This document shows, in pieces, positions 1,326 to 18,150 of a DNA stretch of 64,000 bases; position 1 is the stretch's first letter, and each line of letters starts with the position of its first letter. Source of the DNA: Octopus vulgaris (Eukaryota); contig OX597817.1 in assembly GCA_951406725.2 (NCBI GenBank), positions 85,684,001 through 85,748,000 on the forward strand, in the 5' to 3' direction. The notes beneath the pieces are model-generated. The model was not told where the DNA came from, ran no database searches, and saw only the letters and a list, made by a program, of their open reading frames with translations. A program made the position numbers and the translations under genes.

Positions 1326-3173
1326 CCCTCTCTTCAACCCTGGCCACATGCTTTAACTTGTCTCATAATTAGCCAGCCAGTGAGGAGGGCACTGCTTCCT
1401 CTGCGACCACCATGGGACTTCAGGACTGACTTCAGTTCCTGGCATGTTGCTGCCAGCTTCATCCTCTTGTCCATTACTGTTGGTTCCATCCTCCATTGCA
1501 GTGATGATCCTGTGCACATCCAAAACATGACGTGGTATGCCATCTATGGACACATTGTTCTTCAAATTTACAAAGGTTATTGTCCCCTTTCTCCATTGTG
1601 ATGTGCACCACGTATTTGGGGATTTAACCCAGACTTCTTCCCTGACCTGTACAAAGGCATGCTCTTTCTCTTCTGCAGGTTGTGGCAATGCAGTGCATGG
1701 ATATCTCCACTCGTACTTGAATATTGCCTTCTGTGGCACTGACTCCTCAGCCTGTCCCAACCTTGGTGACATATTATACCAAAAAACAGCCTCGAATGGA
1801 TAAGATGTGTACCCTCTCTGCTATGGTCTTGATGGTGCGAGGATGCCTCTCCACAACCCCATTGCCACTTGGCCAGTATGCCGGCCTGAAGAAACAGAGA
1901 ACATGCCACGGAACATTTCCCCCAGCAGCTCCTAGTGAAATACATGGGGCCTCGTTCTAGGAATAACTCAGTATTCTTGTGATTTCTTCCATGGTCCCCA
2001 TTTCCATCAGCCTCCATATGGCCAACTGCCCCAGTCAGCAATCGACCATCAAGAGCTATATCCCCTGCCAGTAGCATGTCATGTCCACTGCCAGTCATTT
2101 CCAGTTGTGTTCCACTGGAATGCTTCCTGCCTCATGCACACTCAGAGCAAGGTCAATGGACTGGCACCTGTCACAGCTCCCAACTACTCTTTGCACACTC
2201 TATCTGGTTATGTCAGAGTCAACATTCCTGGCTAGGACAGGGTTCTGTCCACCCCCATAAGATGCATGGTATGCAAGCTCCTCAGCTCTAAGTCACTCAG
2301 TTGACACACTGCAGCCACTCCTTGCTCCAGATCCTCTGGCACCTGCAACCAGGCTTTCTTTATTCTGGTCAGGACGTCCACTCTATTCCTCTCGAAGAGC
2401 ACAAAAACCACGCTCAGCCTCAGGTCAAACTCAGCAGCTAGCTCACCCAAAATTCCCAAACGGAGTTTTATCAGCATCTTTGCACCCTCTTTGGTTTGCA
2501 CCTTCCGCTCATCAGTGAGCACTGATCCCACTCATCTAAGTACAGTGGCCAAATCAGTTCGGACCTCAATGGTATGCAGCCCCCACCTCAGGGCCAGGTT
2601 CAGCCCCTTCAACACGGCATCCAGCTCCGCCACATTGATATTGTTGCATTCATCCTTCTTCCTGAGCCAGGCCACATCCTCCACCACAACACCTCCAATT
2701 TCCAGGACAACTCCTGTTGCTATGCTGCTGGTATCACACCACATGATCCCATTCTTTAGTTTGGGCACAGACCTGTTTCTTTTTACTGGGTCCTCCACAG
2801 TCACTCTCTCCAAGACTTCTTGCATCATGGCAGTTGTCTTCTCGCCCACATTATCACTCCACCTTACTCCTTCAGCTCACCTCTTGATGAAGCTGCATGC
2901 CATCTGGAGCCATCCTGCAATCGGGTAGTGTCCCAGCAGCTTCCAACACACAGAAAACAGTTCCCACCTACTTGTCTTGGAGCCCAGTTCTGGGGTCTCA
3001 TTTCCTCTCCAAAACACCAATGCACCAGCCTTATCTCTCTGTAGCTTGAGTCCCAGTGCATCTCCTCCTTCCATTGCCTCCGGCAGTTTGGCAGTTAGCC
3101 CAAAACTCTTTCAAGTGGCTTATTACTCCTTTGCCAACATTATGCTCTCATCCACCAGGATATCATCAATATA
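961..3173 (-). mobile_element. 5'-truncated, decayed Gypsy-like LTR retrotransposon (partial RT, RNase H, integrase, 3' LTR)
   Basis: Minus-strand YIDDILV RT motif at ~3151-3173; RNase H-like WCDTSSIATGVVLE...NVAELDAV (2532-2849); integrase zinc-finger HxxHxG-like segment (2232-2290); integrase C-terminal segment (1353-1772); domain order RT-RH-INT; stops and frameshifts. Confidence 0.8.
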
Positions 3174-3177
3174 TATA

Positions 3178-3605
3178 TCTTTACATTCTGTGTTCATATT
3201 TTGCTGAGGTCAAATCTGTCTTTCATCCTTCATTTTTTTTTTTTTTTTTGCGAGGGAGGGCTTCCAATAAAATAAGTGCCATTTGAGCAATAAGGCCGAT
3301 ATAATCAACTTATTCCCTGCCCTGAAATTGCTGGCCTTGTGCCAAAAATTGAAACTATTGTTGTTGTTGTTGTTTTGCTGTTAAGGTAGCGAGCTGGCAG
3401 AATTGTTACCACACCAGGCAAAATGCTTAGCAGTTGTTCATCTGTCTTTACATTCTGAGTTCAAATTCCACCAAGGTCAACTTTGCTTTTAATTCTTTCA
3501 GGATCGATAAAATAAGTACCAGTTGAAAACTAGTGTCAATATAACTGATTTAGCCCCATCCTCAAAACTACTACCCTTGTGCTAAAATTTGCAACCTCTA
3601 TTATT
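3178..3605 (+). mobile_element. Two Meta-type tRNA-derived SINE copies (first is 5'-truncated)
   Basis: Both match the family aaggyggcgagctggcagaa...gagttcaaattcc...tttgcctttcatcc...gataaaataagtaccag that recurs throughout the window. Confidence 0.7.
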
Positions 3606-4896
3606 ACTACTACTTCTACAACTATAGAGTCTTATTACTGAAATTTATTTTAAAAAGTACTACGTTTACTCATTATGCACATTAGAAACACTTTTATTTC
3701 ACTCAATAACTCTTGTCAAAGTTTTTTTTTTTCTTTTTGGCATCTCTTTAATAAACAACCTTTTCACACAGAAGATCCAGTTATAGCTGCTTAGACTTTT
3801 ATTCTCAGTATTATTAAATTCTCTTTATCACTTTTACTTATTTGTGGAAAACAGCTGTGTGTCTAAAGAATTTACAGATCTTTTTTTCTTTTGTCTAAAC
3901 TATCTTGAAAAAATTTCACAAACAGCTACATCAGATTTTAAACATTGAAATCTCATACAGCTTACATGCGAGTTAACTTTTAAGAGGCCATCTAGTAGCT
4001 TCTAAAACTGATGAAATATTGTCTGCTAGCAATTATAGTAAAGCAATTCATTTATAAGTTAGATAATATAAAGGGGAATGGATGAACCATCCTAATAGAA
4101 GGAAATAATTAAGTTAATACACTTTTTCTTCATGTAAAGTCATTAAATAGATTATTTATTTTTCTCAGTAATCCTCCAACAATTTCAGTTTTTCTTCAAC
4201 ATTCTCATTAGCATTTTATGTTATTCCTGACTGACAACTATTACAGCTTTCAGTCTTTTAATCAGTCACTTTAAAATATATCAAGTTGCTGTCAGTTTTG
4301 ACGTGTCAGCAAAGACCAAACTTATTTTTCAGAGTTCACATTTAAGTAATTTTGCTTTAAAATCCTTTAAATGTTGTTTTGATTGTTATTGTTGTTATTG
4401 TTTCTTTTTTTCTTTTGTTTTTATCCTTTTTGATAATCCTTCCACAAAAACTATATCCTACTGAAGAATTCAGAAGAAAATGCTTGCAAAACAAAAATAT
4501 ACTTTTGGATTACAATGAAATGAGAGACTTAATTTTATTCTTTCATGGTAATGAAATAAATGTGATTACTTTCTGTCTTTATATGTTAGATGAGCATTTT
4601 CAAAGGTACTGTAGTAATAAATAGTATCTTCGGGCATCAAGGTGCTCTCCAAAGAGCAGGTTCTTAACTCCAGTTACCCCTCAAGAGAATGCCAGTCTAT
4701 TAGAGGTAACCTCCTTATATTAGCTCTAGTACTTATTGCCAGCATCTAGAGTAAACAGAAGTGTTTAACCCAGAAACACAATGAAACAAGACCAGCAGAC
4801 TTGAAGTCATAATCCCTCAGCAAGTCAACCAATATCTTTTTCTTACTTGACTATTTTTCTACTATACAAGTGTATCTATATATATGTATGTATGAA

Positions 4897-15620: not shown

Positions 15621-15901
15621 ATATGCGCACAATTATATTCAAATACACGTCTAAATACACACATGCTATATATGCATTTGCTCACTCACACTCGCATGAA
15701 ACACATGCATGTACACCCACATATATATGCAACCATACACATGTACATATACATGTACATATATACATACCATGCACACGCACATGTATATATACCCATA
15801 CATGCACAGAAATGTTCATATACATGTCTATATATGCATATGCACAAGAAAAATGCGGGGTGAAAGGTAAAATACAGAAAAATATGTAAAAATAGATAAA
15901 G

Positions 15902-15953
<52 letters not shown>

Positions 15954-16089
15954 GTATGTATGTATATATGTAAAAATATGCAAAAAGTATGTAAAAATAT
16001 ATATATAAAAATATAGAGAGATAAAATTCTCGTACATGGATACAATATAAAAGGCAGGTTCCATCTGTGATCTTGGTGGGGGGGACCAA

Positions 16090-16420
16090 AAACAACAAAT
16101 ATTTAGCCATATGTGGACATGAACCAAAAAGTTCAGTTCTTGAATTTAGACATGTAGCAAGGTCTAAGCTGCTTTTCCAGTTGAGCCATCTTTCCATATC
16201 ACTTGGCTTACACTTGGCTAAGATCTTCCAATGGATGTTGTAACTGGCACCTTTATCTTTTAAGGACCATATATGACTGGATAATTTGGTCTTTTTTCTT
16301 TTATCCTAGTGCCCAAAACTCAAGGTGTGATTGTTGAACCTGGCCCTAACATATATATTTGGAATTTAACTACTTCCTCCACAACACCAACCTTATTATA
16401 TGATGCCTACTGGAGAATGT
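16090..16420 (-). mobile_element. Penelope-like GIY-YIG C-terminal fragment
   Basis: Minus-strand RARFNNHTLSF...TKLSSHIWSLKDKG...WKILAKCKPS and LNSRTELFGSCPH. Confidence 0.65.
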
Positions 16421-16592
16421 GACCTAAGCATTATTGTCAATTATGATCTGCATTAGGCAAGCCATATTTATAAAATCATAAAAAAGGCTGAAGGGTTTAA
16501 GTTCCACTCAGCCACTCATCAGTTATCTATTATGGTTATGGTATGTCCACATTTACAGTATGTACCTCAAGTCTGTAAAACTCCTCTTGCTG

Positions 16593-17230
16593 ATGTCTTG
16601 CAAACAACTTGCACATGCAAGTGCTACCAGTCAAAAGCTCCGTATACTGGAAGCCAGCAAGTGTATGGTGTCATCAGGAGAGAATGCGTGCCGTTTCGAG
16701 GCCTACCTCTCGACGGCATCAATGCGCACCGGCCTCCCTCACTGATATGAGGCCCCACTTGCTAGATCAGCTGGTTATAAAGTTAAACTCAATATCCTTC
16801 TAGCCATTTTTAAACAAATCCAGTGGCTAGCCTTCTCCACTGTAGATTGGATATCAGTCATGGTGGTATTGACTTTACGATCAGTTAGGCCTAGCAATAA
16901 CAACAGTCATCTCACGCTGTGTCCAAGAAACCCTCTACATCCGACTTCGATAGGATAATGTTCCGCTTTCCAGCCTGCATCTTCACATTCCTCGAGGAGG
17001 TTTACATAACAGTTCAATTTTTGAGCCTGAGCGGCGTCCATATTATCTTCATGAGGAACTGTTAGCTCGACTAACTTTCCTTTTTCACACCACGTCAAAG
17101 TATCTGGTTTTTTCGTAACTGGGATGGGAAAGAAAACCTGGCACCCAGGTAAATCTACAGTTACCTCCCAATATTGATGTATTTAGAGCTGTCTAGGAAT
17201 GTGCAACCAGACAAATATCCTCTACTGGTC
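16593..17230 (-). mobile_element. 3' part of a HERO-like (R2-group, RLE) non-LTR retrotransposon
   Basis: KPDTL...VELTVPHEDN...KLNCYVNL...GWKAEHYPIEVGCRGF, a PD-(D/E)xK-type restriction-like endonuclease signature, followed by a ~200-nt 3' UTR. The clade assignment rests on motif resemblance. Confidence 0.75.
16650..16718 (-). ncRNA. Putative rearranged (non-circularly permuted) hammerhead ribozyme in the LINE 3' UTR
   Basis: Minus strand reads TGCCGTC|GAGAGG-TAGGCCTC-GAAACGGCA-CGCAT-TCTCTC-CTGATGA. A 6-bp stem III and a 6-bp stem I abut the core nucleotides exactly; stem II is unclear. Confidence 0.55.
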
Positions 17231-17324: not shown

Positions 17325-18150
17325 TTATCTTTTAGTTGTTTCAGTTGTTGACTGTATCCATGCTGGAGCTCCATCTCAAAAGGATTTTTGTTGAAATTGA
17401 CACCAATACCTGGTACTTATTCTGTCAGACCCTATTGCAGTACCACTCAATTATAGGAACATAAATAAACAAACACCAGTTGTCAAGCAGTGGTGAGAAG
17501 ACAAACAGATACAAAGGCACACACACATACACACCCTCAGATATATATTATATATATATATAGCTTCTTATTTCTCTATTGCCCACAAGGGGCTAAACAT
17601 AGAGGGGACAAACAAGGACAGACAAACGGATTAAGTCGATTACATCAACCCCAGTGCATAACTGGTACTTAATTTATCGACCCCAAAAGGATGAAAGGCA
17701 AAGTTGACCTCGGTGAAATTTGAACTCAGGACATAGCAACAAATGAAATACCTATTTCTTTACTACCCACAAGGGGCTAAACACAGAGAGGACAAACAAG
17801 GACAGACAAATGGATTAAGTCGATTATATCAACCCCAGTGCATAACTGGTACTTATTTAATCGACCCTGAAAGGATGAAAGGCAAAGTCGACCTTGGCAG
17901 AATTTGAACTCAGAACGTAGCGGCAGACAAAATACTGCTAAGTATTTCACCCGGCATGCTAACGTTTCTGCCAGCTCACTGCCTTATATATATATATAGC
18001 TTCTGCCTGTCAGCCAGATTTACTCTCAAGGCATTAATCAACCCAAGGATATAGTAGAAGACACTTGCAAAAGTGCTGCACAGTGAGACTGAATGTCAGA
18101 ACCATATGGTTGCAATGCAAGTTTCATAACCACACAGTCATGCCTGTGCC
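17325..18150 (-). mobile_element. CORE-type SINE interrupted in its TA tract by two tandem Meta-type SINE units (~17565-17985)
   Basis: SINE tail at 17325-17520 and head at 17997-18150; between them two reverse-oriented cccacaaggggctaaaca...gaaaggcaaagt units. Confidence 0.7.

What the first reader, a model, noticed from the sequence alone, without database searches (positions are those of the whole stretch)
16650..16718. Rearranged (pseudoknotted) hammerhead core in the 3' UTR of a HERO-like LINE
Seen in sequence: on the element's sense (minus) strand, downstream of the RLE ORF end, the RNA reads UGCCGUC/GAGAGG UAGGCCUC GAAACGGCA CGCAU UCUCUC CUGAUGA. UGCCGU pairs with ACGGCA, a 6-bp stem III in correct register with GAAA and a GUC cleavage triplet. 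GAGAGG, directly after GUC, pairs with UCUCUC directly before CUGAUGA, a 6-bp stem I. Established: type I/II/III hammerheads are circular permutations of CUGANGA > GAAA > NUH. Here the order is NUH > GAAA > CUGANGA, which is none of them and forces a pseudoknot, so standard hammerhead models would probably miss it. Characterised R2-group ribozymes are HDV-like and 5'-located. Inference: this is a 3'-located self-cleaving or RNA-recognition module, with a predicted cut between 16712 and 16711, ~120 nt from the element end. Caveats: stem II is weak (AGGCC/GGCUU, out of register). I recall that non-circularly permuted hammerheads have been reported, so the fold itself may not be new and this should be checked.
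Basis: partly seen in the sequence, partly recalled or inferred. Interest (0 to 1): 0.85.

Follow-up and report, generated by a model that had tools for sequence, protein, structure and literature searches.

The report
Split-core hammerhead ribozyme in HERO LINEs
The tail of a widespread family of jumping genes carries a conserved, rewired version of the hammerhead RNA fold, and insertions that begin exactly at its predicted cut suggest that it likely cuts itself in cells and probably lets these elements copy themselves from circular RNA.

Summary
The motif is real (window 16671-16736, minus strand), in a dead 582-nt tail of a HERO-type LINE. Its order (cut site > GAAA > CUGAUGA) is the published type-SGC hammerhead, reported only from metatranscriptomes. 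In 32 divergent relatives stem II forms with a strand upstream of the cut site, and two extra helices sit between A9 and G10.1, a break that the SGC paper assumed does not occur. All helices covary, G10.1 is invariant and position 17 is never G. Of 33 copies without detectable upstream element sequence, 11 start exactly at the predicted cut; a replicate set gave only 2 of 8. The element has no fixed 5' end: 28 of 30 copies holding the 5' UTR run seamlessly into a second tail, 20 through the cut, and both tails share rare variants. Best reading: an active ribozyme that makes unit-length circular templates, like retrozymes but in an autonomous LINE. Cleavage and circles are untested. The scan noted this motif (read as a docking fold) and HERO partial tandems before, in other genomes.

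The parts
16592..17173 (-). 5'-truncated copy (582 nt) of a HERO-type RLE LINE; positions 3136-3737 of the 3737-nt unit; 89.9% identical to the young copy L031
   Evidence: L183
16789..17173 (-). broken remnant of the ORF end (RLE domain); stop TGA at 16791-16789
16756..16765 (-). 5' strand of the distal closing helix P0
   Evidence: pairs with 16663-16654
16753..16756 (-). 5' strand of proximal P0 (GGGG); pairs with the bases right after A9; one G-A mismatch in this copy
16737..16752 (-). hairpin Ph (5 bp, 6-nt loop) between P0 and G10.1
   Evidence: a 13-36 nt insert at this place in 32 of 32 parsed motifs
16731..16736 (-). stem II 5' strand, starting at G10.1, displaced upstream; its A10.2-U11.2 pair replaces the family's G-C (double change)
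16725..16729 (-). 5' strand of the interaction helix that joins the far ends of stems II and I
16713..16718 (-). stem III 5' strand, ending in G16.2-U16.1
16712..16712 (-). C17; predicted cleavage between 16712 and 16711
   Evidence: structural analogy; 11 of 33 truncated copies start at the next base
16706..16711 (-). stem I 5' strand, followed by a 2-nt linker to stem II
16698..16703 (-). stem II 3' strand, ending in C11.1
16694..16697 (-). GAAA (G12, A13, A14, A15.1)
16689..16694 (-). stem III 3' strand
16684..16688 (-). 3' strand of the interaction helix
16678..16683 (-). stem I 3' strand
16671..16677 (-). CUGAUGA (C3-A9)
16654..16670 (-). 3' strand of P0 (proximal part, small bulge, distal part)
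16592..16653 (-). rest of the 3' UTR with a terminal hairpin; sharp 3' end of insertions at 16592

Best explanation
This is a conserved hammerhead-type fold in the tail of HERO-type LINEs, wired like type SGC but with its CUGAUGA block split from stem II, and it likely cleaves after GUC and probably turns read-through transcripts into unit-length circular templates for reverse transcription. Shown: five or six covarying helices, the invariant core, no fixed 5' end, seamless copies of up to 1.53 units, and a pile of 5' breakpoints at the cut. Inferred: a transcript of a copy longer than one unit holds two ribozymes; cutting at both gives a 3737-nt monomer whose two ends stay paired through P0, stem II, the interaction helix and stem III (median 26 bp), so they re-form one ribozyme and can be joined by the ribozyme or a host ligase, or bridged by the reverse transcriptase. 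The element's protein would prime 120 nt downstream of the cut, mostly run through the junction and sometimes past one full turn (partial tandems), and now and then fall off at an unjoined cut (120-nt insertions). My odds: conserved hammerhead-core fold 0.9; cleaves in vivo 0.75; circular template, closed or nicked, 0.6.
For: Covariation in 32 motifs under 90% identical: stem I pairs 1-3, stem II pairs 1-4, stem III pairs 1-3 and P0 pairs 1-3 are paired in 32 of 32; helices are far longer with the own partner than with another motif's (stem I 5.4 vs 0.9 bp, stem II 5.2 vs 3.3, P0 8.7 vs 3.8, interaction helix 6.8 vs 3.7). On the protein tree the two sides change together (II.3 8 and 8 changes, II.4 8 and 8, I.1 8 and 8, I.2 10 and 10, III.3 10 and 10, no non-Watson-Crick row). 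On an unedited MAFFT alignment 80% of cells pair against 63% shuffled, 0 of 500. Positions not imposed by the parser follow hammerhead rules: U16.1, G16.2, C15.2 and G10.1 in 32 of 32, C11.1 in 30 of 32, position 17 C, U or A and never G. Held-out loci L151, L152 and L076 show the same anatomy, by eye. Breakpoints: 11 of 33 truncated copies, 11 of 22 in the main subfamily, start exactly at the cut (binomial 3e-6 and 2e-8 against 16 equal positions); 10 of these 11 end 120-129 nt later. Partial tandems: 28 of 30 loci holding the 5' UTR continue upstream into the element's own tail, 20 through the cut, none stopping at unit position 1. In 18 insertions with two tails the tails share 89 non-majority sites, 29 of them rare, and diverge with age like LTR pairs. 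Head-to-tail junctions also in 12 relatives. A 1283-nt contig of an internally deleted unit closes on itself in run X1.
Against: No cleavage, ligation or circle was observed; all evidence is comparative. The break between A9 and G10.1 has no precedent that I found, and Eckert et al. state that known alignments allow at most 1-2 inserted nucleotides there, so activity could be low. The replicate breakpoint search gave only 2 of 8 at the cut (about 0.085 by hand), less than the majority I predicted. Breakpoint hot spots exist without a ribozyme: the apex of the terminal hairpin (3 of 28; about 4 of 6 truncations, by eye) and unit position 3370 (5 loci). The T before the junction (10 of 11) is also common at the apex hot spot, so it is no proof of run-off. 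About 98% of copies pass the cut (1 of 60 stops there), which a non-cleaving fold also predicts. CUGANGA and GAAA were imposed by my search, so their conservation among parsed motifs is by construction. 31 of 67 long-enough loci were not parsed; about half of these show no trace. The window's own copy is predicted to pair part of CUGAUGA with upstream bases. The runs are contigs only guessed to be RNA and cannot tell a circle from a tandem.
Confidence: 0.6

Rival explanations
1. The fold is a non-cleaving docking structure for the element's protein, derived from or resembling a hammerhead; breakpoints pile up there because reverse transcription stalls, and tandems arise by another route.
For: Most copies pass the site; other breakpoint hot spots exist; the core is interrupted between A9 and G10.1; it lies 120 nt from the priming point, where RLE elements bind their RNA (general knowledge).
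Against: Position 17 varies among C, U and A and is never G, G10.1-C11.1 and G16.2-U16.1 are kept across proteins 30-57% identical: the pattern of catalysis rather than of one protein contact. All helices are mutually compatible once stem II uses the upstream strand. When the enzyme reaches the cut it has already copied the 3' strands of P0, I, III, II and the interaction helix, so little structure is left to stall it at that base (inference), yet 11 of 33 breakpoints are exactly there.
Confidence: 0.17
2. The ribozyme cleaves but only trims the 5' end of a linear read-through transcript, as the HDV-like ribozyme does for R2; the downstream copy stays uncut and partial tandems are inherited from mother copies.
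For: It needs no ligation; longer copies do carry an upstream ribozyme; no array of two or more full units was found, the longest being 1.53 units among 24 loci.
Against: Full-length copies should then stop at the upstream cut: 0 of 28 do and 20 run past it. The two tails of one insertion share rare variants (29 sites in 18 insertions), which a linear template with two separate tails does not give without gene conversion.
Confidence: 0.13
3. Tandems come from template jumps between two linear RNAs with ends at unit positions 1 and 3737; the ribozyme, active or not, plays another part such as limiting expression or aiding translation.
For: 3' ends are sharp at 3736-3737; R2 reverse transcriptase can copy non-continuous templates (title of a reference listed in PMC6765202).
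Against: No pile of 5' ends at position 1 (0 of 28) and junctions are seamless; some 3' ends run a few bases into the next unit, as if the template continued.
Confidence: 0.07
4. It is an ordinary type-SGC hammerhead with the reader's stem II downstream of CUGAUGA, or a chance cluster of motifs.
For: The block order matches type SGC.
Against: The canonical first pair of stem II forms in 3 of 32 motifs and is non-Watson-Crick in 29; chance controls are empty.
Confidence: 0.03

Closest known systems
Type-SGC hammerhead ribozymes (HRIMA-1 motif and variants; Eckert, Friedrich, Weinberg and Weinberg 2023, PMC10085705)
   Same: Order cut site > GAAA > CUGANGA; same core; short linker from stem I to stem II (about 3 nt there; 0-8, most often 3, here); a helix joining the far ends of stems I and II.
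   Different: Here the 5' strand of stem II and the interaction strand lie upstream of the cut site, so block C is split and two helices (P0, Ph) fill the A9-G10.1 link. Found in animal nuclear retrotransposons; the paper found no SGC RNA in genomes of known organisms. 21 of 32 motifs have a kink-turn-like element between stem III and the interaction helix.
Penelope-like elements with pseudo-LTR hammerheads, and plant and animal retrozymes (PMC7761336, PMC6765202)
   Same: Hammerhead in a terminal repeat, partial tandems, and the proposed cycle of cleavage, circularisation and cDNA longer than one unit.
   Different: Those use minimal type I or type III hammerheads; retrozymes encode no protein and Penelope elements have another endonuclease (GIY-YIG, recalled). 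This element is an autonomous RLE LINE with a fixed internal priming point 120 nt after the cut.
R2 and L1Tc elements with 5' HDV-like ribozymes (PMC6765202)
   Same: A self-cleaving ribozyme frees the element from a read-through transcript; R2 has the same RT-RLE protein layout and internally deleted non-autonomous derivatives.
   Different: Different ribozyme class; there the cut defines the element's 5' end, here most copies run through the cut and there is no fixed 5' end.
HERO clade non-LTR retrotransposons (HERO-1_BF, HEROTn, HERO-1_SP rows in the supplement of PMC7650587)
   Same: Shared reverse-transcriptase signature words, by eye; weak target specificity (PMC4640811; varied flanks).
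   Different: I found no report of a ribozyme, partial tandems or circular intermediates for HERO in searches.

Membership tests
Hammerhead ribozyme | Core CUGANGA and GAAA | tested here: met
   Intact in the window and in nearly all of 30 genomic copies; imposed by the search in relatives
Hammerhead ribozyme | A15.1-U16.1 pair and NUH cleavage triplet | tested here: met
   U16.1 and G16.2 in 32 of 32; position 17 C 15, U 11, A 6, G 0
Hammerhead ribozyme | Stems I, II, III with covariation; G10.1-C11.1 | tested here: met
   stem II only with the upstream strand
Hammerhead ribozyme | Site-specific self-cleavage | not testable with these tools
   Indirect only: 11 of 33 truncated copies start at the predicted cut
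Type-SGC permutation | Block order S > G > C, short stem I-stem II linker, interaction helix | tested here: met
Type-SGC permutation | Block C intact: A9 directly followed by the 5' strand of stem II | tested here: not met
   Pairs in 3 of 32; A9 is followed by P0 instead. It works like SGC but is not a member as defined
Types I, II, III (Rfam hammerhead families) | Circular permutation of C > G > S; Rfam model match | tested here: not met
HERO clade | Single ORF with N-terminal zinc finger, RT, CCHC knuckle and RLE | tested here: met
   1115-aa ORF in L035; RVT_1; invariant C, C, H and PD..E columns; zinc finger and RLE read by eye, no Pfam hit
HERO clade | RT phylogeny groups it with named HERO elements | tested here: inconclusive
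   By-eye match of signature words to three HERO rows and not to the NeSL, Utopia and R4 rows seen; no tree with named references was built
Retrozyme or Penelope-like element | No ORF (retrozyme) or GIY-YIG endonuclease (Penelope); type I or III hammerhead | tested here: not met
   RT-RLE ORF; other ribozyme wiring
Retrozyme or Penelope-like element | Partial tandems with the ribozyme at both ends of the unit | tested here: met
Retrozyme or Penelope-like element | Circular RNA accumulates in cells | tested here: inconclusive
   Self-closing contig in run X1; contigs cannot tell circle from tandem and RNA is only guessed

The most novel reading that the evidence does not exclude
HERO LINEs are autonomous ribozyme circles: a whole clade of restriction-like-endonuclease retrotransposons, with relics even in the human genome (PMC9004415), replicates through unit-length circular RNA made by a new hammerhead permutation whose core is split by a two-helix insertion and whose cleaved ends re-form the ribozyme; its reverse transcriptase primes inside the circle and rolls past one turn.
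Probability: 0.5. Interest if true: 0.92.

Novelty: new variant of a known kind. Interest (0 to 1): 0.83.

Why it matters
It would be the first non-circularly permuted hammerhead in eukaryotic genomes and the first with the A9-G10.1 link opened, which widens the fold's rules and explains why descriptor and Rfam searches miss a motif present in thousands of genomic copies. It also gives a testable life cycle for HERO elements: a protein-coding LINE that uses a circular template and internal priming, so far proposed for retrozymes and Penelope-like elements. A reverse transcriptase that primes at a fixed site inside circular RNA and copies kilobases would interest people who engineer R2-type enzymes for gene insertion.

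Tried and rejected
A hammerhead on the opposite strand: none. Rfam: only low-complexity microRNA matches near the window, nothing at gathering score in 7 relatives, no other ribozyme in 11 loci that lack the motif. Viral contigs: no relative. Nested folding cannot show the structure: it recovers P0 in 27 of 33, stem III and the interaction helix in 15 each, stems II and I in 4 and 2, since these cross the others. The first MAFFT alignment misaligned two length classes and was not used; the second still misaligns about 10 of 33 rows, so understates pairing. A control breakpoint search upstream of the ribozyme failed because of a subfamily indel. The 1.25-kb deletion form of run X1 was not among 30 of 40 listed genomic matches to the stretch before its joint. 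No RNA holder on record was listed, so nothing is claimed on expression. I did not test separately whether upstream tails form a class of their own across insertions beyond the nearest-neighbour list. No covariance model was built and no R-scape test is on hand. Earlier-scan look-ups by sequence found nothing.

Full report
1. What is in the window. On the minus strand the stretch 17173-16592 is the last 582 nt of a repeat with 2658 first-look candidates in the 2.8-Gb host genome, of which 40 were scored. Rfam has no ribozyme match.

2. The element. Ten loci fetched with longer flanks gave a unit of 3737 nt with one ORF of 1115 aa (L035) that has an RT domain and invariant CCHC and PD..E columns among 32 relatives. 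Its RT shares signature words, by eye, with HERO-1_BF, HEROTn and HERO-1_SP and not with the NeSL, Utopia and R4 rows that I saw in part 12 of 19 of the supplement of PMC7650587. I built no tree with named references, so 'HERO' is a by-eye assignment. The window copy is a dead fragment, 89.9% identical to the young copy L031.

3. The published fold. Eckert et al. 2023 (PMC10085705; I read parts 1-6 of 8, which hold the whole main text, and searched the supplement for five words) define blocks S, G and C and describe type SGC, with a linker of about 3 nt between stems I and II and a helix joining their far ends. They assume that CUGAnGA and its two neighbouring strands cannot be interrupted, searched RefSeq on that basis, and found no SGC RNA in genomes of known organisms; 'HERO' does not occur in the supplement. 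The order in the window is SGC.

4. The real stem II. In the 30 genomic copies the bases after CUGAUGA cannot pair with those before GAAA. Instead an upstream strand does, and it is followed by a strand that pairs next to stem I, exactly the SGC interaction helix. The bases after A9 pair with a further upstream strand (P0), and a hairpin (Ph) links P0 to G10.1. To test this I fetched 80 of 223 metagenome stretches that encode relatives and parsed the 400 nt after each protein match. 37 of 80 scored 29 or more: 36 of the 67 loci with at least 180 nt, plus one short locus. I dropped L123 (G10.1 apparently mutated, wrong strand picked), collapsed the rest at 90% identity and added L031: 32 motifs. 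Of the 31 long-enough loci not parsed, L076 has a full motif further downstream and L084 one with a core change; L078, L094, L104, L119, L126, L134, L149 and a few more show decayed or cut-off copies by eye; about half show nothing.

5. Covariation. The first three or four pairs of stems I, II, III and P0 are paired in 32 of 32 motifs, with up to six pair types; the canonical first pair of stem II in 3 of 32. Helices are much longer with the own partner than with another motif's. On a tree of the RLE domains both sides of a pair change the same number of times. An unedited alignment gives 80% paired cells against 63% shuffled and 34-45% when slid. Bases that the parser did not demand follow hammerhead rules (U16.1, G16.2, C15.2, G10.1 invariant; position 17 never G). 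G10.1 lies 20-26 nt before the cut in all 32. Controls are empty. Two loci fetched later have the same anatomy. In 21 of 32 motifs, not in the host's clade, a GA on one side and a 3-nt bulge plus GA on the other join stem III to the interaction helix (0-6 of 32 for other bulge lengths); I read this as a kink-turn from the recalled consensus, and it could explain how these two helices, far apart in the crystal model discussed by Eckert et al., are connected.

6. Does it cut? Indirect evidence only. Among 60 loci chosen by the 117 nt after the cut, one starts exactly at the cut. I then searched for copies that lack family bases just upstream of the cut and examined 87 loci: 45 of 45, 30 of 144 and 12 of 12 matches. 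33 had no detectable upstream element sequence; 11 of these start exactly at the cut and no other position has more than 3; in the main subfamily it is 11 of 22. Ten of the 11 have T before the junction and end 120-129 nt later. Three more such junctions are visible in the 100 printed rows (one is the copy). Against: the third search, run as a replicate after I noted the prediction, gave 2 of 8; hot spots also exist at the apex of the terminal hairpin and at unit position 3370; some of the 33 are old diverged copies rather than truncations.

7. No fixed 5' end. Of 30 loci that match the start of the unit, 2 begin inside the 5' UTR and 28 run on upstream into the element's own tail, 20 of them through the cut and none stopping at it or at position 1 (four short overlaps read by eye; L054 and L055 may be one duplicated insertion). 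The longest is 1.53 units, none reaches two. In 18 insertions with two tails, the tails differ by under 1% in young and 5-15% in old copies and share 89 non-majority sites, 29 rare; in old copies own-tail distance is not smaller than the distance to other copies, as expected after independent decay. Twelve relatives also show a next unit, or a second tail, head to tail. Eight genomic copies are internally deleted but keep both ends, and such a form of about 1.25 kb is the deepest contig in run X1, where it closes on itself; the same joint stands in X2.

8. Mechanism. These facts fit one cycle. A copy longer than one unit is transcribed by read-through (inferred; no promoter was sought); both ribozymes cut; the monomer's ends re-pair through four helices, a median of 26 bp, and are joined or bridged; the protein primes 120 nt after the cut and copies round the circle until it falls off. 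This is the cycle described for retrozymes, where circular RNA gives cDNA longer than one unit (passages of PMC7761336) and proposed for Penelope-like elements (passages of PMC6765202). Cleavage, joining and circles are inferred, not shown. Whether the junction is covalently closed or a paired nick cannot be told from DNA copies.

9. Novelty. Nine searches found 'type-SGC' only in Eckert et al. and no HERO ribozyme. Passages of Perreault et al. 2011 (PMC3088659) list core insertions near C3, A6 and A13, none at A9-G10.1 in what I saw. I saw single passages of PMC5678591, PMC4640811 and PMC9004415 and only listings of the other papers. Subscription journals, Repbase Reports and preprint supplements are outside the library, so a prior note on HERO 3' UTR structure may exist. 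Two earlier notes of this scan concern other genomes: one read the same motif as a docking fold because its helices conflict with the ribozyme; here the conflict is only with the canonical stem II and disappears with the upstream strand. The other found partial tandems in a HERO family, as I do.

10. Verdict. A real, deeply conserved RNA structure; a new variant of the non-circularly permuted hammerhead; likely active; probably the key to a circular-template life cycle of HERO LINEs. Interest 0.83.

Noticed in passing
L052, L051, L058, L060, L061, L063, L067, L069; run X1 record 1: Internally deleted copies that keep the 5' UTR and the ribozyme-bearing tail, each preceded by a partial second tail: candidate non-autonomous, retrozyme-like derivatives.
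   Followed up: partly
window 16604-16628 (minus); unit position about 3713; L048, L060, L062; A second hot spot of 5' breakpoints at the apex of the terminal hairpin; unexplained (cDNA fold-back or another RNA end).
   Followed up: partly
unit position 3370; L050, L054, L055, L161, L202: Five loci share a 5' breakpoint inside the ORF end; two may be one duplicated insertion.
   Followed up: no
21 of 32 motifs, e.g. L096:3739-3808, L111:3645-3719: Kink-turn-like element between stem III and the interaction helix; absent from the host's clade and from the L089, L108, L114 group.
   Followed up: partly
L151:923-1050; L152:4441-5530: HERO-type tails with the full motif in contigs titled as bacterial MAGs; L152 is gene-poor and repeat-rich, so probably eukaryotic contamination.
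   Followed up: partly
L085, L136, L137: Distant relatives (30-39% identity), two with a head-to-tail next unit, lack the standard motif; L136 and L137 have GAAA and CUGAUGA closer together and may carry another variant.
   Followed up: partly
L243, L246, L250, L251, L263, L267, L274, L275, L281, L282: An older host subfamily with a different linker upstream of stem III.
   Followed up: no
L040 (G000:C20:14224000-14233500): Two 670-nt tails 3 kb apart are part of a 2964-nt tandem duplication of host DNA, not an element tandem.
   Followed up: yes
window 15900-16305 (minus): Reading frame fragment that looks like the end of a GIY-YIG domain of a Penelope-type element (recalled resemblance), about 300 nt from the HERO tail.
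   Followed up: no
window 17560-17980: Two adjacent copies of an abundant SINE-like repeat upstream of the HERO fragment.
   Followed up: no
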